Below, piece by piece: positions 1,409 to 11,180 of a DNA stretch of 64,000 bases. The notes under the pieces were generated by a model. That model searched no databases, was not told where the DNA came from, and was given only the letters and a program-made list of their open reading frames with translations. The stretch is from assembly GCA_964564415.1 (NCBI GenBank), contig CAZMAV010000009.1, positions 80,341 to 144,340 on the forward strand, written 5' to 3'. The DNA comes from an uncultured Bacteroidia bacterium (lineage in GTDB: Bacteria; Bacteroidota; Bacteroidia; J057). The position numbers were made by a program, and so were the translations under genes. Position 1 is the stretch's first letter. The number at the start of each line of letters is the position of its first letter.

Positions 1409-1879
1409 GTCTTCACATATTCATCTGATCGAACGCAGTCAGATAAGTTGCTTGATTATCAATCGGTTACTATTGTTTTCCTGCCTCTTGGATCATAATC
1501 CCATATGTCCAAAACTGAATTTAGGACAATTGGACGGACCTCATCAGGCATGTTACTGCTGAAGAATGGGCCATAAGCATTGTTCTTCTGGGCTTGGGAA
1601 AGCTATGCGTAGATCCGCTTAGCTTGGACCGACAGAGCTTTGATCTGACGGTAGTGGGAGAGGTATGCAGGGGTGTGACATTTTGATGCTAATACATACA
1701 ACTATTAGGTCCTTCTCAGGATGTGGTCAACAGTAAAGTTCGACAAGAGAATGTCAGGCTGTGAAGGAAAAACTGAAGGCTGTTGGGCAGGCATCCAACA
1801 GGGGAGAAAATATTGTAATTCGTTCTTTTTCACATACTTGAGGGGTGTAGTAGCGATAAAGAAATTTATCGCTACGCCT

Positions 1880-1954
1880 GACTCGGAAGTCCTATGGTGG
1901 GACGCCACATTGTCTATGTGGTAGCAGCGGGTTCGATTCCCGTCCGGGTCGCCA
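1880..1954 (+). tRNA. tRNA-Asp (GTC), CCA encoded
   Basis: The cloverleaf folds by hand: acceptor gactcgg/ccgggtc (one G-U pair), D-stem gtcc/ggac, anticodon stem ccaca/tgtgg with loop ttGTCta, T-arm gcggg-ttcgatt-cccgt, then discriminator g and cca. An 11-bp perfect hairpin (1849-1875) lies immediately upstream. Confidence 0.85.
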
Positions 1955-2120
1955 GGATCAAGGCCTTTCCCCTAGCATGGCAAAATAAAGTGGGAAGCGA
2001 TTGAGCTTAGCTTAAAGCTTCACACCCGACAAAAGGAGCCATGACTTGACCGGAATATGGCAGGTATCCAGCCTTGGAAGTCCCAAGGTTATGAGCTTTG
2101 ACGTACGAATGATTTGGCAA

Positions 2121-2189
2121 AACGCCCTAGCTTAAAGGACTAAAAGCGGCCTTAGAGGGTAGATATGGGTTCGATTCCCATGGGCGTTC
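2121..2189 (+). tRNA. tRNA-like element with a perfect acceptor stem and T-arm but no canonical D and anticodon arms (possible pseudo-tRNA)
   Basis: Acceptor aacgccc/gggcgtt is 7 bp and the T-arm atggg-ttcgatt-cccat is perfect. The 5' 46 nt (ta gctt aaaggactaa aagc ggccttagagggtagat) cannot form a 5-bp anticodon stem with a 7-nt loop. Confidence 0.35.
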
Positions 2190-2222
2190 ACCGAGAAAGG
2201 CTTTGATGAGCCTCTCCTTCAC

Positions 2223-2293
2223 TGCCCGATAGCCTAGCGGCAAGGCACCACATTTTGGCTGTGGAGACCCAGGTTCGAATCCTGGTCGGGCAT
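2223..2293 (+). tRNA. tRNA-Gln (TTG)
   Basis: U1-A72 acceptor tgcccga/tcgggca, as is typical of Gln tRNAs. Anticodon stem ccaca/tgtgg with loop ttTTGgc. T-arm ccagg-ttcgaat-cctgg. Confidence 0.8.
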
Positions 2294-2299
2294 CTTTTC

Positions 2300-2370
2300 C
2301 TATCCGAAGCGCAATGGCGGCGCACAAGTCAGGGAGACTTGGGGTGTGGGTTCGATTCCTGCCGGATAGT
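2300..2370 (+). tRNA. tRNA-Pro (GGG)-like; anticodon loop cagggag carries an unusual A33
   Basis: C1-G72 acceptor ctatccg/cggatag, typical of Pro. D-arm gcgc-aatggcg-gcgc. Anticodon stem caagt/acttg with loop caGGGag. T-stem gtggg/cctgc has two G-U pairs. Confidence 0.55.
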
Positions 2371-2374
2371 CTCT

Positions 2375-2446
2375 GGAACTATAGCTTAGCAGGTAGAGCG
2401 TCTGACTGAAGATCAGAAGGGGGTGGTTCGATTCCACACGGTTCTA
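2375..2446 (+). tRNA. tRNA-Phe (GAA)-like with a non-pairing acceptor stem (possible pseudo-tRNA)
   Basis: Canonical D-arm ta-gctt-agcaggta-gagc. Anticodon stem tctga/tcaga with loop ctGAAga. T-arm gtgg-ttcgatt-ccac. The 5' end ggaacta is not complementary to the 3' end cggttct. Confidence 0.4.
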
Positions 2447-2456
2447 CATTTTTGAG

Positions 2457-2539
2457 GGAACGCGTCAACGAAGGAAGGTTGAACCTGTCTGTAAAACAGG
2501 TGCTTTGGGGCTTAGTAGGTTCGACTCCTGCTCCAGACT
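2457..2539 (+). tRNA. tRNA-Tyr (GTA)-like class II element with a non-pairing acceptor stem (possible pseudo-tRNA)
   Basis: D-stem caac/gttg. Anticodon stem cctgt/acagg with loop ctGTAaa. Long variable arm. T-arm gtagg-ttcgact-cctgc. The 3' acceptor tccagac has no complementary 5' partner; the nearest complement, agtct-ct-gga, lies at 2368-2377, inside the Phe-like element. Confidence 0.3.
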
Positions 2540-2612
2540 CCCGATTGTATTTGCAAAGACCCGGCAAACCCTCTTAAGGCCAGCCGGGTCCTCAAACTGA
2601 TTTCAAATGGGC

Positions 2613-3818
2613 TTACTCGTTGGGATTCATGATTTTACCTAAAAAAAGGATGGTATTAGACTCGAGGTCTCGAATCACGAGCAGGAAAGGACGATCCACC
2701 CGAAGGGTAGGAGGAACTGAGGTAAGGCCTACCTCTACAGAAGTAGCACCAGCAGCTTCCAGGCCTCCTTCTTCGATCTTCAAAAAAGTCTTGTGCTTAA
2801 CTCTTGAAATAAAAAGATTGGAGCTTTCAACTACTCCGCTTAGATCAGCCGCATTTTTACGGAAAGCCTTCACCATTCCCAAACTTTTCATGGTCTCCTT
2901 CAATTCTTTTTCATATTTGATCTCCATCTTAGGAAAGATGACTATAAGTTGGGTTTCGCCCTGAAGATCCTGGATGAGGCTATCGTAAAAATCAGTAGAA
3001 AGAGAGGGAATCAAGTCAGCAGGTCTCTTTTCCGATTTTGGCAAAATAATATCCATGGCAAATTCTGGTTCATCTTTGCCGATAAGCAAAGTAATGGCTT
3101 GAAAATCAGGACGGTCGAGATAGCGAAATTGTGAATCGTGAAACATCATGTCAACGTCTTCCTGGGTATTGGAATCCGGAAAAAATGTTCCTGAATGGGT
3201 ACTGTTTTCCAAAAAAGGCTGGTTCCAGGGTCCCTTGAAGTAAATGGTATTGACCAAAAACATCACGTCTTGAGAACTGATGTTGCTGATGATGTTCTTG
3301 ATGCGATCTTCCGTTTGATCGGCTACCCACTGATTGATTTTGTCCTTGGCGGAAGGGTTTTCAAAATCCAAGGCTTCTACCTTGCTCTGAAAATTATCCT
3401 CGGCTTGACCGATAAAATCACTTTTGGGATTCAGCTCCTGCCTATGGTAAATAGCATTGGCGATGCTTAGCTGCAGCTTGCCATCTGAACGGACAAGCTT
3501 AAGGAGTAGGTTTTTGTATTGCTCGTTGAGTTTTTCCTCATCAAGCCCAGAGAGATGGAGGGCTTCGTAGATTTCTTGTTTTGTTTCTCCTTCTGCTCCA
3601 TTGGAGGTCATGCTAATGGCAGAACCTATGCTCAAGGGTGAGATGAAGATATTTTTATCGGGTTCTTCAGAGTCCAGAACTTTGAGCATTTGAAAGCCCA
3701 TTTCATTGTTGGCCTGGCTGACGTCCTCAAAGGTGGAGGAGGCTACATCTACAGGCTCCTCACAGGAGAGAAGACCAAAGATCAAAATCAGGCTGCTCAG
3801 GTGGATGATGGTTTTCAT
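2613..3818 (-). CDS. Serpin (serine protease inhibitor) family lipoprotein
   Basis: 401 aa. Lipoprotein signal 'LIFGLLSC'. Serpin core motifs 'NTIYFKGPWNQPF' and 'FLVNTIYFKG'. Reactive-centre-loop hinge 'KIEEGGLEAAGATSVEV' followed by '...RVDRPFLLVIRD...ILFLGKIMNP'. Confidence 0.85.
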   Translation of the reverse strand: MKTIIHLSSLILIFGLLSCEEPVDVASSTFEDVSQANNEMGFQMLKVLDSEEPDKNIFISPLSIGSAISMTSNGAEGETKQEIYEALHLSGLDEEKLNEQYKNLLLKLVRSDGKLQLSIANAIYHRQELNPKSDFIGQAEDNFQSKVEALDFENPSAKDKINQWVADQTEDRIKNIISNISSQDVMFLVNTIYFKGPWNQPFLENSTHSGTFFPDSNTQEDVDMMFHDSQFRYLDRPDFQAITLLIGKDEPEFAMDIILPKSEKRPADLIPSLSTDFYDSLIQDLQGETQLIVIFPKMEIKYEKELKETMKSLGMVKAFRKNAADLSGVVESSNLFISRVKHKTFLKIEEGGLEAAGATSVEVGLTSVPPTLRVDRPFLLVIRDLESNTILFLGKIMNPNE

Positions 3819-3961
3819 AAGGGTTTGGATTTTGTATTAAATTACTATCTAGAATTTAAAATTCAAATTCCTTCTTCTTCAGGCGAAAAAGCCGGAAATA
3901 ATCCTGCCTTTTTTTCTCTTTATCTCCAAATAAGGGTAACACAGCATGTTTCCAGAAAACG

Positions 3962-4046
3962 GGAAGGATGGCAGAATGGTAGTGCAACTGTTTCGAAAAC
4001 AGGAGTTGTCCTCCGGGACATGGGGGTTCGAATCTCTCTCCTTCCT
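3962..4046 (+). tRNA. tRNA-Ser (CGA), class II with long variable arm
   Basis: Acceptor ggaagga/tccttcc. Anticodon loop ttCGAaa. Variable arm agttgtcc-tccg-ggacat. T-arm ggggg-ttcgaat-ctctc. Confidence 0.75.
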
Positions 4047-4063
4047 CCTGTTCAAAGATCAAT

Positions 4064-4138
4064 GTACAAGTAGCTCAATGGCAGAGCACCTGGCTGTTAA
4101 CCAGGGGGTTGAAGGTTCGAGTCCTTCCTTGTGCGCCA
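4064..4138 (+). tRNA. tRNA-Asn (GTT), CCA encoded
   Basis: Acceptor gtacaag/cttgtgc. D-arm gctc-aatggca-gagc. Anticodon stem cctgg/ccagg with loop ctGTTaa. T-arm gaagg-ttcgagt-ccttc, then g and cca. Confidence 0.85.
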
Positions 4139-4212
4139 CAGGAAAAGGCCAAATATAAAGGAGGTAATCCAGCAACATCCAAGGCCGGCAGGAAGGTCCT
4201 GCCCCTGTGACG

Positions 4213-4300
4213 GGAAGTGTTAGCCGAATGGCAAGGCACCCGATTACTAATCGGGAAACCCGTACAAGCGGGTCTGTGGGTTCGAGTCCCATCGCTTCCG
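4213..4300 (+). tRNA. Class II tRNA with predicted anticodon ACT (a Ser-AGU reader with A34), unusual
   Basis: Acceptor ggaagtg/cgcttcc. Anticodon hairpin cccga-ttACTaa-tcggg. Long variable arm with stem cccg/cggg. T-arm gtggg-ttcgagt-cccat. Confidence 0.5.
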
Positions 4301-4321
4301 CAAACTCCTAACATTGGCAGC

Positions 4322-4395
4322 ACCCGGACGGCGCAATCGGCAGACGCATCAGGCTTAAACCCTGTTCGAGTGCGGGTTCGACTCCGCTCCGGGTA
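4322..4395 (+). tRNA. tRNA-Leu (TAA)-like but only 74 nt: the class II variable arm is missing and the T-stem is one base short (possible pseudo-tRNA or indel)
   Basis: The arm-by-arm architecture parallels the canonical bacterial tRNA-Leu(TAA) structure: acccgga .. gcg-caatcggcaga-cgc .. tcagg-ctTAAac-cctgt .. gcggg-ttcgact-ccgc .. tccgggt. The variable region is only 6 nt, and the T-stem 3' strand is ccgc where cccgc is expected. Confidence 0.4.
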
Positions 4396-4458
4396 CTTTT
4401 TATCCCAAAAGCGGGTGATAGGCCTACTTTTTCTTGACGCAAACTTGCCGTCTTTCAT

Positions 4459-4531
4459 GGTGGCCGTAGGGCAATGGTAGCGCATCGGATTGTGGCTCCG
4501 AAGGCAGGGGTTCGATTCCCTTCGGCTCACC
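4459..4531 (+). tRNA. tRNA-His (GTG) with G-1 and a one-nucleotide bulge in the 3' acceptor strand
   Basis: G-1 followed by gtggccg. Anticodon stem tcgga/tccga with loop ttGTGgc. T-arm agggg-ttcgatt-ccctt. The 3' end reads cggcTcacc, where cggccacc would pair perfectly with the 5' strand and C73. Confidence 0.7.
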
Positions 4532-4710
4532 CTCCTGAATCCCTAAAACTCCAGCAAAATGAAACGCGTAATTACCTACATCATCTCTGTGATGATCCAT
4601 AACAGAGCCATGAGGCATGGATGGCGAAAAACTCCCCCAGACCCTCCTCTTTCCAATGGGGAATCCCCTTTGACCGCCAACCTTCCCCCAGGAAGATCGT
4701 TTAGCTGTTT

Positions 4711-5091
4711 ATGAATGAAAGAGACCAAGCCCTACTTGAAATGAGGCCTCGACTCTCCCTCGACAACAGCAAGGCCGGGGAGGCAGAAAGTTTCCAAAAT
4801 AATACCCTTCGTCCCATCCTTAAATTACAAAATCCCCTGCTCAAAATCATGGTAAGGGGGTGGCTTGACGCCCACAAACAAGACCTGACCCAGCAGGATG
4901 GCAAAGAGGCAAAAAAACTGATCGAACACATCCTCAAGACCAACAAAGGACTGAGAGCCACCCTTTTTGCTATGGTGGTGGGACTGATGACGGAGGAAGA
5001 AGTGGAGGAATACCTTCAGCACAAAAGAGAAATGAATCGAAGGTTGACCACCATGCTCATTCAGCGACTTCAGGATCAACTGATGTTGTAA
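4711..5091 (+). CDS. Hypothetical protein
   Basis: 126-aa ORF with an ATG start and no recognisable motif. It sits in the region of gene remnants. Confidence 0.35.
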   Translation: MNERDQALLEMRPRLSLDNSKAGEAESFQNNTLRPILKLQNPLLKIMVRGWLDAHKQDLTQQDGKEAKKLIEHILKTNKGLRATLFAMVVGLMTEEEVEEYLQHKREMNRRLTTMLIQRLQDQLML

Positions 5092-5279
5092 ATATTCCTA
5101 TTTGTCAACAGGAGTAGATCATCCGTCTGTTACCTGGAATTGACCCCTGATCAGCGAATCCTAACAGCCTGCCACACTTATATCGGAAAGTGAAGTTTTA
5201 TCGTTCATATTTATGTTTAGGAAAACGCCTGTGGCAAGGCTAATCCTAGGATTATCAACCCCAATAATTCAGTACATTC

Positions 5280-5465
5280 ATGGTTAGAGTACAATTTAAG
5301 CCGATTGCCCCTCAACTTGAGAGAGATATTCTGGACCTCCTGACCTACAAAGGCAAAATCGCAGCCATGAAGCGCTACATCGAGATTACGGGCGCCCGCG
5401 TCCACGATGCCAAGATCGCTGTAGACCGCATGAGCAGAAACATTGAACCCGGCCAGGCCCTCTAA
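5280..5465 (+). CDS. Small protein with weak resemblance to the ribosomal L7/L12 C-terminal domain fold
   Basis: 61 aa. 'KGKIAAMKRYIEITGARVHDAKIAVDRM' resembles the L7/L12 C-terminal domain 'KIAVIKAVR..TGLGLKEAKDLVD'. Confidence 0.3.
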   Translation: MVRVQFKPIAPQLERDILDLLTYKGKIAAMKRYIEITGARVHDAKIAVDRMSRNIEPGQAL

Positions 5466-6115
5466 GGAAGATAAATCGAAGGATTTCTCTTCCCTGAGCC
5501 TCCTTTTCCTCTATTACGTAAATGCACCCTGAGTTTTTGCTGAGATCAAGCCTGGCCTTTCTATCCGTGAAGGTAGCCAATGGTCGGTAAGCCTTACCCC
5601 TAACGTCTGGCAGTTTCATCTCCCTCATCATTTGGTCTTTCTCCTGCCATTCCTAAATCAATATTTTTCCATTTACCCTCAGTAGATGCCCCTTCCAAAA
5701 AGGGATGGAGACCTGCGTGTTTGGGTTTAGGTCATTTTCTGCCCAGGCAAAATAGATGACCTGAATTTCTCCCTGTTTCCCAACTTCATGGGTAAAATAG
5801 CCTTTCATCCATTTTTTACATCAAAGCAAATTTTCATTTGACTCTATGCGAAAACATGTCTTGATCACTCTGAAAGTAGCCGACCGCCAAAAAGCCGTCG
5901 GTGATGCTGCGAATCCCACCTAGGAGGAAGGTTTACAGGCTTCCTGCCCATTTTTCCCCAATACCAGCCTGTACGGTAAAATCAGAGAATCATGGCAAAT
6001 CGTCAAAACCGAAGGGCCTGTTTTCAGCAAGATCAATACCAGGAAGAGCTGTTTCGCCGTTTGCTGAGGGAGGGTAAAGCGAGGTTTTTAGTTCAAAAAG
6101 AAGAAAAAGCATCTG

Positions 6116-6622
6116 TTGCGAATGGGTTTTGATGAAGGAAATGCCCTCCGGGAAGCCCTTGCAGCTATGCAACACGAAGCTTACGACAAAAAAGGCAGAG
6201 AGGCCAAACTCGAAATTTTGCAGGCTCTGCTTCGACAGCCCCAAAATTTCATCAAGCACGAGATTTTGAGTGAGGCAGCCCTCATGCCGGACGCCCGCCA
6301 GGGCTACGGACTTCCCATCGGGGGGGTCCTGGCTACGGAAAAATCCGTCATCCCCTACGCTGTGGGAGTAGACATTGGCTGTCGAATGGCCCTCTCGGTC
6401 TTCGATTTCAAAGCTGATTTTTTGGAGCGTCAGAAGCGTGAACTGCTGGACCCCCTTCGTGTGCACACCTTCTTTGGTGCTGGAAAAGGGCCTGACCAAC
6501 CCATGGAAGACGAGGCCCCCATCGCATACAAGGACATTTGGGAAGTCATGGCTCAGCAGGAGGATCTGGTAGACATTGTAGGTAAGTTTTCTCCAAAAAT
6601 CGTAAGGATGGCTGGCGATTGA
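6116..6622 (+). pseudogene. rtcB: rtcB remnant: the RtcB N-terminal segment joined in frame to the RtcB C-terminal tail, with the central catalytic region (~240 aa) missing
   Basis: 'LMPDARQGYGLPIGGVLATEKSVIPYAVGVDIGCRM' resembles the conserved RtcB N-terminal region (recalled consensus 'VMPDVHLGKGSTIGSVIPTKGAIIPAAVGVDIGCGM'). The C-terminus 'EDEAPIAYKDIWEVMAQQEDLVDIVGKF' resembles the RtcB C-terminal tail (recalled consensus 'IDEIPMAYKDIDAVMAAQSDLVEVIYTL'). The total is only 168 aa, whereas full-length RtcB proteins are about 400 aa. Confidence 0.6.
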
Positions 6623-9224: not shown

Positions 9225-11180
9225 TTACTCTTTAACAACGGGGGAAGATGTCAACATGTTCCCTTGGCTGATGCTCAGTATGTAGTAACCTCCACTTAAG
9301 GAATTTAAATCTAGTGGAATTTTATTTGAAATCAACACTTCAAATCGGGTTTCATACACTATTTGCCCCTCAAGGTTCCTTATTGCTACCTGAACCGGCT
9401 CATGACCCCTAAAGTTGTGGAGCATGACTTCTACCTTTCCACGGCTTGGATTAGGATAAACGTCTACATCTAGCGGGGTGTTGCCTCCTTCTGAAAATAG
9501 TTCGATCGTGTGGCTGTAAGAATAGCTCCCATCCCGGTCGATTTGAAGGAGGCGATAGCTTAACTTGGAAGAGCGAGGCGGGATGTGGTCCATAAACTCA
9601 TAATTGCTAACCTGCGAAGAGTAGCCCTGGGCCTCCTTGCTTCCAATTACCTCCCAGCTTTCGCCATCAGTGCTTCTTTCTATGCTAAAGGATTGGCTGT
9701 TGCGCTCCGAAGCAGTAGCCCAGGTCAGCCTTATGCCGGATTCCTCTCTTTTACCTTCAAAACTGAGCCATTCCACCGGAAAAGAAGGCTGGCTTTCGAA
9801 GGCTCCCAAATCCACCGTGTTACCCTGTACACGGGTATTTCCAGAGGGATCCTGTGGGTTGATTCCCGGGGCACTGGCTGTTCCGGCATCTATGGCGGGA
9901 GAACCGCTAGCGGGTGCATAGTTGTCATCTAAGGTACAGGTAATGTTGTCAGGCCCGGCAGCCTGGAAAAGGTTTGGGTCTGCATCCATATTTTGACCTG
10001 CATCGCTGACCGTAGCCTGCCAATTGGGACCACTTCCATTGCTGCCTTGAAGGATGCTGTAGGCGATCTCCATGTTCGAGACTTGATTGGTCTTATAGAC
10101 TTGAGAACTCAGGTGGGTTTCTCCGTTTTGGTCGTTGTTGGACCAAAAGATAGAATTATAGAGGTTGATGTTTGAAGACTGGGTCATGTAGAATCCCCCA
10201 TAATTGCGGCTGGCCCGATTGGAGTAGCAAGTGGAGTTTGTAAAATTGCAGGAAGAAAAATTAAGGGCGTAAAGTCCTCCCCCGTCCTGGTCTGATTCAT
10301 TGAAGGTCAAGGAAGTATTGACCATCGTAACTCCTGAAAAGCTGGAGGCATACATTCCGCCGCCTTGAAGGCTGGCGCGGTTTCCACATAGGACCACCCC
10401 TTCCACGTTAAGGTTGGACAGGGAATTGGCGTAAATTCCCCCGCCCCTTTGGCCTATGTTGTTGTAGGCAAATAAGTTTGAAAGCGTAAGAGAGCTCAGG
10501 CTTTGAAGATAATATCCTCCTCCGTCTCCCAACGCTTCATTGTCAAAGGCATAGATATTGGAAAATTCTCCCAGTGAGATACTAGACACGTGTAATCCCC
10601 CGCCCTTGCCGATCACATAGTTGTCTTTGATAATGAGATTTTTGAGGGTTACGTTGCTCATGCCGCTAATCTTAAGCCCTCCTCCGTCTCTATTGCTGTT
10701 GCTGTCTCCGTATCCATTTTGAATGGTAAAACCGTCCAGGTAGGTAGAAGGTCCATTTCCCAAGAAGATGACCTCCCATACATTATCCGTGGGATCTCCC
10801 GCTGTCCCTATATCTCCGTCCAGCAGTGTCGAGTTGTTTTGCCAATTCCGCTGCCCCAGGTTGCTTTCGGTACCGGCAAAACCTCCAAAGATGTGTACAG
10901 GTTTGGGACAAAAGAATTTCCAGTCCCTGGAGTTGCCCTGTCCGGGCTGGCCGTAGGCCCTTCGATCCGGATAGTAGGTGCCGGCCTTGACCCAAAGGGT
11001 ATCATTGCCGCTCCAAGAACTTGTTTCCAGGGCATCCTGTAGATTCGTATAAGCATCAGTCCAGGAACTCCCGTCATTATTGCCACTCGCATCCTGCGCC
11101 ACATAAATGAGGCGGGCAAAGGAGAAATTCAGAAGTAAAAGAATAAAACTTGTGGTAAGAATTTTTTTCATGTTTGACAC
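9225..11180 (-). CDS. Secreted right-handed beta-helix repeat protein with a T9SS C-terminal sorting domain
   Basis: 651 aa. Signal peptide. Repeated 'GGGLHVSS / GGGYYLQS / GGGIYANS / GGGMYASS / GGGLYALN' beta-helix turns. The C-terminal ~80 aa ('VYPNPSRGKVEV...GGYYILSISQGNMLTSSPVVKE') matches a Por/T9SS sorting domain. Confidence 0.7.
   Translation of the reverse strand: MSNMKKILTTSFILLLLNFSFARLIYVAQDASGNNDGSSWTDAYTNLQDALETSSWSGNDTLWVKAGTYYPDRRAYGQPGQGNSRDWKFFCPKPVHIFGGFAGTESNLGQRNWQNNSTLLDGDIGTAGDPTDNVWEVIFLGNGPSTYLDGFTIQNGYGDSNSNRDGGGLKISGMSNVTLKNLIIKDNYVIGKGGGLHVSSISLGEFSNIYAFDNEALGDGGGYYLQSLSSLTLSNLFAYNNIGQRGGGIYANSLSNLNVEGVVLCGNRASLQGGGMYASSFSGVTMVNTSLTFNESDQDGGGLYALNFSSCNFTNSTCYSNRASRNYGGFYMTQSSNINLYNSIFWSNNDQNGETHLSSQVYKTNQVSNMEIAYSILQGSNGSGPNWQATVSDAGQNMDADPNLFQAAGPDNITCTLDDNYAPASGSPAIDAGTASAPGINPQDPSGNTRVQGNTVDLGAFESQPSFPVEWLSFEGKREESGIRLTWATASERNSQSFSIERSTDGESWEVIGSKEAQGYSSQVSNYEFMDHIPPRSSKLSYRLLQIDRDGSYSYSHTIELFSEGGNTPLDVDVYPNPSRGKVEVMLHNFRGHEPVQVAIRNLEGQIVYETRFEVLISNKIPLDLNSLSGGYYILSISQGNMLTSSPVVKE

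What the first reader, a model, noticed from the sequence alone, without database searches (positions are those of the whole stretch)
2121..2539. Several tRNA-like elements in cluster 1 do not form canonical cloverleaves (possible pseudo-tRNAs or a rearranged array)
Element 2121-2189 has a perfect acceptor stem and T-arm, but its 5' half cannot form D and anticodon arms. The Phe(GAA)-like element (2375-2446) and the Tyr(GTA)-like element (2457-2539) have good D, anticodon and T arms, but their 5' and 3' acceptor strands are not complementary. The 3' acceptor of the Tyr-like element (tccagact) is instead nearly complementary to agtct-ct-gga at 2368-2377, inside the Phe-like element, which hints at a past rearrangement or nested duplication. 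The Pro(GGG)-like gene carries A33 instead of the near-universal U33.
Basis: seen in the sequence. Interest (0 to 1): 0.6.

Follow-up and report, generated by a model that had tools for sequence, protein, structure and literature searches.

The report
Eroded tRNA array with chimeric pseudo-tRNA
The odd "tRNAs" are mostly ordinary decay of an accessory tRNA gene array (one is a Tyr/Cys fusion left by a 278-base deletion), but one element is a conserved tRNA-shaped RNA that lacks an anticodon loop and looks functional.

Summary
The window carries a shrunken copy of a long accessory tRNA array. In related Bacteroidota genomes this array lies between a Ro60/Rsr gene and an RtcB RNA ligase gene and holds 22-28 tRNAs plus Y-RNA-like genes.

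- **Tyr-like element (2456-2539):** a real pseudogene. Three sister contigs (~93-94% identical) have intact Tyr(GTA), Leu(TAG), an Ala remnant and Cys(GCA). The window lost 278 nt between two GTAGGTTCGA T-loop repeats, which fused the Tyr 5' part to the Cys 3' end.
- **Phe:** a canonical cloverleaf (51.9 bits). Two window-specific substitutions weaken its acceptor stem.
- **Element 2121-2189 ("X"):** not a pseudogene. Four independent lineages keep it, with compensatory changes in the acceptor and T stems, an invariant D arm, and a short capped hairpin in place of the anticodon arm (a 7-bp stem with a UUCG loop in one relative).
- **Pro(GGG) A33:** inherited. It is shared with a distant relative despite a rewritten anticodon stem.

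Elsewhere in the locus, Rsr, HNH and GNAT are gone, PcfJ is reduced to 39 codons and RtcB is fragmented.

The parts
1817..1879 (+). Conserved leader in front of the first array gene: the motif ACTTGAGGGGTGT followed by a hairpin at 1850-1875.
   Evidence: It aligns with L014, L002 (in front of both Asp copies) and L015 (blastn; sequences). The same motif and hairpin occur in L041 and L042. The hairpin arms differ between lineages but stay complementary (read by eye).
1880..1954 (+). tRNA-Asp(GTC), canonical cloverleaf with U37.
   Evidence: ARAGORN; Rfam tRNA 50.2 bits; ortholog alignment.
1955..2120 (+). Conserved structured spacer between Asp and X, ending in the invariant motif TTTGACGTACGA.
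   Evidence: RNAalifold on W, L014, L002 and L015 gives 36 pairs, 12 of them with compensatory changes. The spacer is absent from L041. There are only about 3 independent lineages, so this is tentative.
2121..2189 (+). Element X, a tRNA-shaped RNA. It has a 7-bp acceptor stem, a D arm (GCTT/AAGC, loop AAAGGACTAA), a mini hairpin GCCU-UAGA-GGGU in place of the anticodon arm, a 4-nt variable region, a T arm (AUGGG UUCGAUU CCCAU) and discriminator C.
   Evidence: Model R1 scores 80-95 bits only at the orthologous site in W, L013, L014, L002, L015 and L041; ordinary tRNAs score <=45 bits. 98% of cells are paired and 6 pairs changed on both sides. The MFE fold equals the proposed fold in L002, L015 and L041.
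2223..2294 (+). tRNA-Gln(TTG), canonical.
   Evidence: ARAGORN; Rfam 66.5 bits.
2300..2371 (+). tRNA-Pro(GGG), a perfect cloverleaf with A33.
   Evidence: ARAGORN. Identical in L013/L014. A33 is also present in L002, which has different acceptor and anticodon stems; L042 has U33.
2375..2447 (+). tRNA-Phe(GAA), canonical but weakened: G7A at 2381 gives a 7-66 A x C mismatch, and C72U at 2445 gives G1.U72.
   Evidence: Rfam 51.9 bits against 63.0 in L014. MFE -16.1 against -22.4 kcal/mol. Both changes are unique to the window among 7 orthologs.
2456..2524 (+). The 5' part of tRNA-Tyr(GTA): acceptor 5' strand, D arm, anticodon arm, long variable arm, and the T-stem 5' strand with part of the T loop. 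The junction repeat GTAGGTTCGA lies at 2515-2524.
   Evidence: Collinear with the intact Tyr of L013/L014. blastn: W 1-2529 = L014 9647-7115.
2525..2539 (+). The 3' end of tRNA-Cys(GCA): the rest of the T loop, the T-stem 3' strand, the acceptor 3' strand TCCAGAC and the discriminator.
   Evidence: blastn: W 2515-6108 = L014 6851-3286. The repeat copies lie 278 nt apart in L012, L013 and L014, and the window has a single copy.
2613..3818 (-). Serpin gene embedded in the array, convergent with block 1.
   Evidence: Pfam Serpin, 2.6e-107. Its homologues in L002 (49% identity) and L015 (55%) are also flanked by tRNA blocks.
3962..4532 (+). Array block 2: Ser(CGA) 3962-4048, Asn 4064-4138, Ser(ACT) 4213-4301, Leu(TAA) 4322-4396, His 4459-4532. 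Several carry changes found only in the window.
   Evidence: ARAGORN. Window-specific changes: Ser G34A and G9U; Leu a 1-nt loss in the T stem and U8C; His D-stem and T-stem changes. Rfam bits, W against L014: Ser(GCT) 43.3/52.9, Leu 35.8/51.0, His 48.3/60.2.
4711..5465 (+). Two small conserved array-associated ORFs: 126 aa at 4711-5091 and 61 aa at 5280-5465.
   Evidence: Present next to the array in L012-L015, L041 and L042. No Pfam hit.
5992..6622 (+). Gene wreckage: PcfJ codons 1-39 (5992-6108) abut RtcB residues 8-195 (6110-6514, with an internal loss) and 428-469 (6482-6622).
   Evidence: tblastn with the sister proteins; blastn against L012. Pfam RtcB matches only profile positions 11-83 of 426 as its best stretch.

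Best explanation
Cluster 1 is the front half of an eroding accessory long tRNA array (an 'L-array'). The array belongs to a Bacteroidota island whose full form is: rsr (Ro60/TROVE), Asp, X, Y-RNA-like genes, 20-28 tRNAs (with a serpin gene inside), two small ORFs, PcfJ, HNH, GNAT, RtcB.

In the window's lineage the island is being dismantled by deletions.

(1) Tyr-like element. It is a dead chimera. Slipped-strand or illegitimate recombination between two 10-nt direct repeats (GTAGGTTCGA, spanning the T stem and T loop of Tyr and of Cys) removed 278 nt. Lost were the Tyr 3' end, Leu(TAG), a truncated Ala-like remnant and the Cys 5' part. What remains is the Tyr 5' strand GGGAACG facing the Cys 3' strand TCCAGAC. 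This is shown.

(2) Phe. It is still a cloverleaf but carries two uncompensated acceptor-stem substitutions found only in the window. Ser(GCT->ACT), Leu(TAA) and His carry comparable private lesions. This is shown. That these lesions reflect relaxed selection after loss of the repair genes is inferred.

(3) X. It is a maintained gene for an L-shaped tRNA mimic. The acceptor/T minihelix, the D arm and the elbow contacts (U8, A14, G18G19, T loop) are kept. The anticodon arm is replaced by a short capped hairpin, so X cannot decode. It should still be cut out of the polycistronic transcript by RNase P and 3'-end enzymes, like its tRNA neighbours. I infer that it acts as a tRNA-shaped decoy or scaffold in the tRNA damage and repair context of the island. 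Lacking an anticodon loop, it would be immune to anticodon nucleases.

(4) A33 of Pro(GGG) and U37 of Asp. These are inherited, conserved anticodon-loop peculiarities of this array, not damage.
For: Deletion. blastn gives W 1-2529 = L014 9647-7115 and W 2515-6108 = L014 6851-3286. The alignment with L012, L013 and L014 shows the same break. The repeat copies are exactly 278 nt apart in three independent assemblies, and the window has a single copy with a Tyr left flank and a Cys right flank. The sister Tyr and Cys acceptors pair at 7 of 7 positions, the window chimera at 2 of 7. The sister Tyr folds as a cloverleaf (z = -2.4), the chimera does not (z = -0.3).

Erosion. No TROVE, HNH or GNAT is found anywhere in the 64 kb. 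PcfJ is cut to 39 codons and RtcB is in fragments. Private lesions in Phe, Ser, Leu and His were polarised with up to 6 outgroup orthologs and come with lower CM scores.

Island architecture.

X. The acceptor pair 7-66 is C-G, G-C or A-U in different lineages. T-stem pairs 49-65 and 50-64 are both changed on both sides in L041. The anticodon-arm replacement differs in sequence but is always a capped hairpin.

Pro A33.

Selection. tRNA-like genes differ from L014 at 2.9% of positions, against roughly 10% for the spacers. Selection therefore acted over most of the divergence.

Literature. L-arrays are horizontally transferred, occur in Bacteroidetes, contain pseudogenes, suffer frequent insertions and deletions, and neighbour HNH and rtcB genes (PMC8421152). 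tRNA-like Y RNAs lie next to Ro60 (PMC4201824).
Against: There is no expression or read-level data. L001, which is 100% identical to the window, may come from the same read set, so it is not fully independent confirmation. The spacer divergence figure is inflated by alignment-end gaps. X rests on only four independent lineages (W/L012-14, L002, L015, L041), and its function is entirely inferred. X survives almost unchanged in a lineage that has lost rsr and, in the window, rtcB, so a strict functional link to those genes is doubtful. Some sister-lineage tRNAs also carry imperfections, such as the Ser(CGA) D stem and the truncated Ala, so erosion is not unique to the window.
Confidence: 0.8

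Rival explanations
1. X (2121-2189) is just another decaying pseudo-tRNA that happened to lose part of its anticodon arm.
For: Rfam tRNA does not score it in the window. The surrounding array is demonstrably eroding. The window's own MFE fold differs from the consensus in the 5' half.
Against: X is retained at the same position (directly after Asp) in lineages whose serpins are only 49-55% identical and whose spacers are largely unalignable. Six pairs have changes on both sides, and 98% of cells are paired against 35-49% for slid controls. The D arm is invariant over 20 nt. In L041 the arm is a 7-bp stem with a UUCG tetraloop, which is a built structure rather than a remnant. X differs from L014 at only 1 of 69 positions.
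Confidence: 0.15
2. X is a Y RNA, that is an Rsr/Ro60-bound RNA of the YrlA or Yrn1 type.
For: X is the second gene downstream of rsr in L015, L002 and L041. Bacterial Y RNAs carry tRNA-like domains. D. radiodurans Yrn1 has D and T arms with a short 'anticodon' hairpin between them (PMC4201824).
Against: There is no Rfam YrlA match at X. I found no extended Ro-binding stem formed by the flanks when I inspected them by eye. The relatives' genuine YrlA-like genes share a 5' GGGTGCCGTAGA motif that X lacks, and the window contains that motif only at chance level. X is kept in the W/L012-14 lineage, which has no rsr.
Confidence: 0.1
3. The irregular elements are assembly or sequencing artefacts: a collapsed repeat or indel errors.
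For: The junction lies in a repeat. The window's Leu(TAA) lesion is a single-base indel.
Against: An independent Logan assembly of SRR7048221 is 100% identical over 8,686 nt, including every lesion. The repeat is only 10 nt, far shorter than assembler k-mers. The larger deletions (PcfJ to RtcB) follow the same pattern.
Confidence: 0.05
4. One reading: the Tyr-like 3' strand belongs with a 5' strand at 2368-2377, so Phe is nested inside a split or rearranged tRNA.
For: AGTCT-CT-GGA at 2368-2377 is nearly complementary to TCCAGACT.
Against: The same AGTCTCTGGAAC junction between Pro and Phe is present in L013/L014, where Tyr and Cys are both intact. TCCAGAC pairs perfectly with the Cys 5' strand GTCTGGA, which lies in the deleted stretch.
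Confidence: 0.02

Closest known systems
Long tRNA arrays ('L-arrays' / tRNA array units), for example the Anabaena PCC 7120 trn operon (Santamaria-Gomez et al. 2021, PMC8421152; Tran et al. 2016, PMC4758250)
   Same: A dense, same-strand block of supernumerary tRNA genes covering most isotypes. Protein genes are embedded in it. HNH endonuclease and rtcB genes are neighbours. Some members are pseudogenes, and insertions and deletions between relatives are frequent. L-arrays are reported in Bacteroidetes.
   Different: Here the array sits directly downstream of rsr (Ro60) and is interspersed with YrlA-like Y RNA genes, a serpin, PcfJ-like genes and the anticodon-less element X. The window's copy has shrunk to 9 callable tRNAs, below the 20-gene definition.
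rsr-yrlBA-rtcBA RNA repair operon of Salmonella, and YrlA/Yrn1 Y RNAs (Chen et al. 2014, PMC4201824; Hughes et al. 2020, PMC7790460)
   Same: In the relatives, Ro60, tRNA-like non-coding RNAs and the RtcB ligase are linked in one locus. The tRNA-like modules keep the T-arm/D-arm elbow.
   Different: YrlA is a permuted tRNA mimic (T arm, closed acceptor, D arm) held on a Ro-binding stem. X has open tRNA-like ends and a closed anticodon arm, and shows no Ro-binding stem. No RtcR or RtcA was seen. The window itself has lost rsr and has a dead rtcB.
Phage tRNAs with anticodon-loop changes that escape tRNA-targeting nucleases (van den Berg et al. 2023, PMC10264068)
   Same: Accessory tRNAs with conserved non-standard anticodon-loop residues (Pro A33, Asp U37). 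Many Rsr-carrying IMG/VR contigs also carry tRNA arrays.
   Different: No nuclease or resistance was tested here. That paper does not discuss position 33 or 37. The link is only an analogy.
Eukaryotic tRNA-like small RNAs such as mascRNA (Rfam RF01684)
   Same: A cloverleaf-like RNA processed like a tRNA but with a reduced anticodon arm. There is a weak Rfam match to X of L002 (21.7 bits).
   Different: The score is far below the gathering score of 42.5, and mascRNA is a different domain of life with no homology implied.

Membership tests
Canonical tRNA (Rfam RF00005) | 7-bp acceptor stem formed by the 5' and 3' ends | tested here: met
   X 7/7; Pro 7/7; Phe 6/7, including 2 G.U. NOT met by the Tyr-like element, 2/7.
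Canonical tRNA (Rfam RF00005) | 5-bp anticodon stem with a 7-nt loop and U33 | tested here: not met
   X has a 4-bp stem with a 4-nt loop; relatives have 5 bp/3 nt, 4 bp/4 nt and 7 bp/UUCG. Pro(GGG) has a 7-nt loop but A33. Phe and the Tyr-like element meet this feature.
Canonical tRNA (Rfam RF00005) | Covariance-model score at or above the gathering score (29 bits) | tested here: not met
   No RF00005 match for X, Pro(GGG) or the Tyr-like element in the window even at E<=10. Phe scores 51.9 bits. X of L002 and L015 reaches 43.0 and 45.4 bits, and Pro(GGG) of L002 reaches 52.9.
Deletion-derived chimeric tRNA pseudogene | Both parental genes intact and adjacent in close relatives, with the breakpoint at a shared direct repeat | tested here: met
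   Tyr and Cys are intact in L012, L013 and L014. GTAGGTTCGA copies lie 278 nt apart there, and the window has a single copy at 2515-2524.
tRNA array unit / L-array | At least 20 tRNA genes at 2 or more per kb, on the same strand | tested here: not met
   The window has 9 ARAGORN tRNAs plus X and the chimera. Homologous arrays do meet it: L002 28, L015 23, L041 26, L042 22. The window holds a remnant of such an array.
tRNA array unit / L-array | Neighbouring HNH endonuclease and rtcB genes (frequent but not obligatory, per PMC8421152) | tested here: inconclusive
   Present in L012, L014, L015 and L041. In the window HNH is absent and RtcB is fragmentary.
YrlA-type Y RNA (Rfam RF02553) | Permuted tRNA-like domain on a terminal Ro-binding stem, encoded near rsr, with CM score >= 69 bits | tested here: not met
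   X gives no YrlA match, is not permuted, and the window has no rsr. The relatives' candidate Y RNAs reach only 42-45 bits. They show the permuted architecture when read by eye.

The most novel reading that the evidence does not exclude
Element X is the founding member of an undescribed family of bacterial anticodon-less tRNA mimics: an open acceptor end, an intact elbow, and the anticodon arm replaced by a capped hairpin. It is encoded as the second gene of Ro60-linked tRNA arrays in a Bacteroidota clade and co-occurs with PcfJ-like and HNH genes. It would act as a nuclease-proof tRNA decoy or a scaffold in tRNA damage and repair. More broadly, rsr followed by a long tRNA array and ending in rtcB would be a recurrent 'tRNA back-up and repair' island.
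Probability: 0.4. Interest if true: 0.6.

Novelty: new member of a known kind. Interest (0 to 1): 0.4.

Why it matters
For annotation, this is a clean worked example of how tRNA arrays decay. Short T-loop repeats act as deletion breakpoints and produce chimeric genes that look like tRNAs with mismatched ends.

The more useful product is the context. In a Bacteroidota clade, long tRNA arrays are physically wedged between Ro60 and RtcB and mixed with Y-RNA-like genes. This strengthens the proposed link between accessory tRNA arrays and the response to tRNA damage.

The context also contains a conserved tRNA-shaped RNA that cannot decode. If X is expressed, it gives a simple handle for asking what non-translational job tRNA mimics do in these islands.

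Tried and rejected
- **Phage collection:** only generic tRNA matches, no related locus.
- **Exact 20-mer of the X D arm, JGI metagenomes:** one hit, L011, which is a chance match inside a coding region with no tRNA. The sister contigs were missed because of a single C>T difference.
- **Same 20-mer and a degenerate 19-mer, IMG/VR:** nothing found.
- **Dyadobacter and Arundinibacter serpin loci, L003-L010:** no tRNAs, so they are irrelevant.
- **P0122, the closest Rsr homologue at 73% identity:** its DNA could not be fetched.
- **X model against 25 Rsr-carrying viral contigs and L042-L045:** only ordinary tRNAs at <=45 bits.
- **Sigma-54 or Bacteroidetes-type promoter in the TTTGACGTA...GGCAC motif upstream of X:** considered by eye and dropped, because the spacing and the -12 element do not fit in most lineages.
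- **Extended flank pairing around X that could form a Ro-binding stem:** I looked for it by eye and found nothing consistent across lineages.
- **A37G of Phe as a window lesion:** withdrawn. Outgroups show that G37 is ancestral and that the sister lineage changed.
- **The extra U in the His 3' acceptor strand as damage:** withdrawn. It is shared with L014 and L015.
- **PMC10264068 on anticodon-loop positions 32, 33 and 37:** no mention found.
Full report
**What is in the window.** ARAGORN finds nine tRNA genes on the + strand, in two blocks separated by a minus-strand serpin gene (2613-3818).
- Block 1 holds Asp 1880-1954, Gln 2223-2294, Pro(GGG) 2300-2371 and Phe 2375-2447.
- Block 2 holds Ser(CGA), Asn, Ser(ACT), Leu(TAA) and His, within 3962-4532.
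- Rfam's tRNA model confirms eight of these.
- Even at E<=10, Rfam gives nothing for Pro(GGG), for the element at 2121-2189 (called X here) or for the Tyr-like element. The only match to the Tyr-like element is tRNA-Sec at 17.7 bits.

The flanking genes are bacterial: an Smr-domain protein, a GH13 amylase and a T9SS-type secreted protein. The phage collection holds no related locus.

**Checking the observation.**
- Two elements are indeed non-canonical. X has perfect acceptor and T arms but no 5-bp/7-nt anticodon arm.
- The Tyr-like element has D, anticodon, variable and T arms, but only 2 of 7 acceptor positions can pair.
- Pro(GGG) has the loop CAGGGAG, that is A33.
Six of its seven acceptor positions pair, two of them as G.U, and it scores 51.9 bits.
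GCTT/AAGC closes a 10-nt loop with G18G19. The whole tRNA-like fold costs -21.2 kcal/mol, against -22.0 for the MFE.

**Relatives.** Related loci were found in two rounds.
- The serpin gave a 100% identical Logan contig (L001).
- It also gave three sister contigs at ~93-94% nucleotide identity: L012, L013 and L014, from two JGI metagenomes and one SRA run.
- Two distant MAG loci came from the same search: L002 (serpin 49% identical) and L015 (55%).
- Rsr homologues of L015 then gave L041-L045.

**The Tyr-like element is a Tyr/Cys deletion chimera.** The sister contigs read Phe, Tyr(GTA), Leu(TAG), a truncated Ala-like stub, Cys(GCA), serpin.
- Their Tyr has the acceptor GGGAATG/CATTCCC and folds as a type II cloverleaf.
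- Their Cys has the acceptor GTCTGGA/TCCAGAC.
- blastn splits the window exactly here: W 1-2529 = L014 9647-7115, and W 2515-6108 = L014 6851-3286.
- The 10-mer GTAGGTTCGA (T-stem 5' strand plus the start of the T loop) occurs in both Tyr and Cys, 278 nt apart, in L012, L013 and L014.
- The window has one copy, at 2515-2524, with Tyr sequence to its left and Cys sequence to its right.

So 2456-2524 is Tyr and 2525-2539 is Cys. The window lost the Tyr 3' end, Leu(TAG), the Ala stub and the Cys 5' part.

The sisters have the identical sequence there. It resembles GTCTGGA by chance.

**Phe and the other lesions.** Orthologs from up to six loci were used to polarise the changes.

| Gene | Changes found only in the window | Rfam bits, window vs L014 |
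|---|---|---|
| Phe | G7A (uncompensated, 7-66 A x C); C72U | 51.9 vs 63.0 |
| Ser(GCT) | G34A (now ACT); G9U | 43.3 vs 52.9 |
| Leu(TAA) | one base lost from the T-stem 3' strand; U8C | 35.8 vs 51.0 |
| His | a D-stem mismatch; a T-stem G.U | 48.3 vs 60.2 |

Two initial suspicions were withdrawn. Phe G37 is ancestral, and the bulged U in the His acceptor is shared with L014 and L015.

**The whole locus is eroding.** The full island is seen in L015, L002, L041 and, in part, in L042 and L012/L014. Its order is:
- rsr (TROVE/Ro60), then Asp, then X
- several YrlA-like RNAs, which are permuted tRNA mimics scoring 42-45 bits (below the gathering score of 69)
- 20-28 tRNAs, with or without an embedded serpin
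- 126-aa and 61-aa ORFs
- PcfJ (once or twice), HNH, GNAT, RtcB

The W/L012-14 lineage has already lost rsr and the Y RNAs and has a reduced array. The window has gone further. tblastn finds no TROVE, HNH or GNAT anywhere in the 64 kb. PcfJ is reduced to codons 1-39, which abut RtcB residue 8. RtcB lacks roughly residues 196-427.

The tRNA-like genes still differ from L014 about three times less than the spacers do: 2.9% against roughly 10%, the latter inflated by end gaps. Selection therefore acted for most of the divergence, and the damage is recent.

**X is a conserved tRNA mimic, not a pseudogene.** X sits directly after Asp in W, L013, L014, L002, L015 and L041.
- A covariance model built from these copies scores 80-95 bits at those sites only. 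All ordinary tRNAs in 33 loci score <=45 bits.
- On the five-sequence alignment, 98% of cells pair, against 35-49% when the partners are slid. Six pairs changed on both sides.
- The acceptor pair 7-66 is C-G, G-C or A-U in different lineages. Pairs 1-72 and 2-71, and T-stem pairs 49-65 and 50-64, are rewritten in L041.
- The stretch TAGCTTAAAGGAMTAAAAG(C/T) is otherwise invariant; the last base is T in L013/L014, which keeps the pair as G.U. It covers U8, A14, G18G19 and A21.
- The anticodon arm is replaced by GCCU-UAGA-GGGU in W, GCCUG-AGA-CAGGC in L002, GCCU-GUGA-AGGU in L015, and a 7-bp stem with a UUCG tetraloop in L041.
- ViennaRNA returns exactly this four-helix fold as the MFE for L002, L015 and L041.

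X therefore has everything needed for the tRNA L-shape and for end processing, and nothing for decoding.

Its discriminator base and first base pairs vary, which argues against a fixed aminoacylation identity (inference). It is not a YrlA-type Y RNA: there is no Rfam match, it is not permuted, no Ro-binding stem was seen, and it persists without rsr.

Its function is unknown. My best inference is a tRNA-shaped decoy or scaffold in the tRNA damage and repair setting. In this small sample it co-occurs with PcfJ and HNH: present together in 4 lineages, absent together in 4 loci.

**Pro(GGG) A33.** The gene is identical in the sisters. L002 keeps A33 although its acceptor and anticodon stems are rewritten with full compensation. 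L042 has U33. A33 is thus an inherited feature of a gene under structural selection. Asp similarly has U37 in five lineages. A role in escaping anticodon-loop-directed enzymes is an analogy to phage tRNAs (PMC10264068) and was not tested.

**Comparison with what is known.** Long accessory tRNA arrays (L-arrays) are described as horizontally transferred and present in Bacteroidetes. They contain pseudogenes (3 of 26 genes in Anabaena), suffer frequent insertions and deletions, and neighbour HNH and rtcB genes (PMC8421152).
- Ro60-adjacent tRNA-like Y RNAs are described in more than 250 bacteria and phages (PMC4201824).
- The window is thus a decayed member of a known kind.
- I did not find three things described in the searched literature: the tight rsr / long array / rtcB arrangement, the embedded serpin, and X.
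- The rsr / long array / rtcB arrangement recurs in L041 and L042. L043-L045 show rsr followed by arrays of 15-44 tRNAs, with no rtcB in the fetched stretch, and many IMG/VR contigs also pair rsr with tRNA arrays.

**Verdict.** The finding is largely explained as ordinary gene decay, with a precise mechanism for the Tyr-like element. One component, X, is a likely new tRNA-like RNA family that deserves follow-up.

Noticed in passing
window 4213-4301: tRNA-Ser has anticodon ACT. This is a window-specific G34A (position 4246) of the Ser(GCT) kept in all relatives, together with G9U. A34 is otherwise almost confined to tRNA-Arg(ACG) in bacteria.
   Followed up: yes
window 4322-4396 and 4459-4532: Leu(TAA) lost one base from the T-stem 3' strand and has U8C. 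His has private D-stem and T-stem changes. An extra bulged U in the His 3' acceptor strand is shared with L014 and L015, so it is a conserved oddity rather than damage.
   Followed up: yes
window 1955-2120: The spacer between Asp and X is conserved in W, L014, L002 and L015. RNAalifold predicts 36 pairs, 12 with compensatory changes, followed by an invariant TTTGACGTA(C/T)G motif. It may be a further structured RNA. It is absent from L041.
   Followed up: partly
window 1817-1879: The leader motif ACTTGAGGGGTGT plus a hairpin (1850-1875) precedes the first array gene (Asp) in every relative, directly after the rsr stop codon where rsr exists. The hairpin arms covary.
   Followed up: partly
window 5992-6622: A PcfJ-like gene is truncated to 39 codons and abuts a fragmented RtcB (residues 8-195 with an internal loss, plus 428-469). 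About 3.7 kb present in the sisters (PcfJ x2, HNH, GNAT) is missing.
   Followed up: yes
window 5280-5465: A 61-aa ORF is 77% identical at the nucleotide level to L015 and L002, far more conserved than its surroundings. It always lies next to the array and has no Pfam match.
   Followed up: partly
window 2613-3818; L002 6001-7170; L015 8001-9203: A secreted-type serpin gene is embedded, on the opposite strand, inside the tRNA array in three divergent lineages. This is an unexplained conserved linkage.
   Followed up: partly
L015 11013-11071, 9810-9880, 10570-10690; L002 9567-9703; L041 10925-11075: Several Y-RNA-like genes are interspersed among the tRNAs downstream of rsr. They share a 5' GGGTGCCGTAGA and a 3' ...GTAGTTGCCCC terminal stem, and some enclose a permuted tRNA-like domain. 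Rfam YrlA gives 42-45 bits, below the gathering score. ARAGORN miscalls parts of them as tRNAs, for example 'Leu(GAG)' in L002 and 'Arg(CCG)' in L015.
   Followed up: partly
L014 6945-6995 (stretch deleted from the window): A truncated Ala-like stub with only an acceptor stem and a T arm. It corresponds to a low-scoring Ala(TGC) in L002 and L015 and shows earlier decay in the sister lineage too.
   Followed up: no
L043 and L045, about 10490-10760: Repeated 75-nt 'tRNA-Ser(ACT)' calls alternate with Val(TAC) in another Rsr-linked array. Their anticodon and isotype are unusual, and they were not examined.
   Followed up: no
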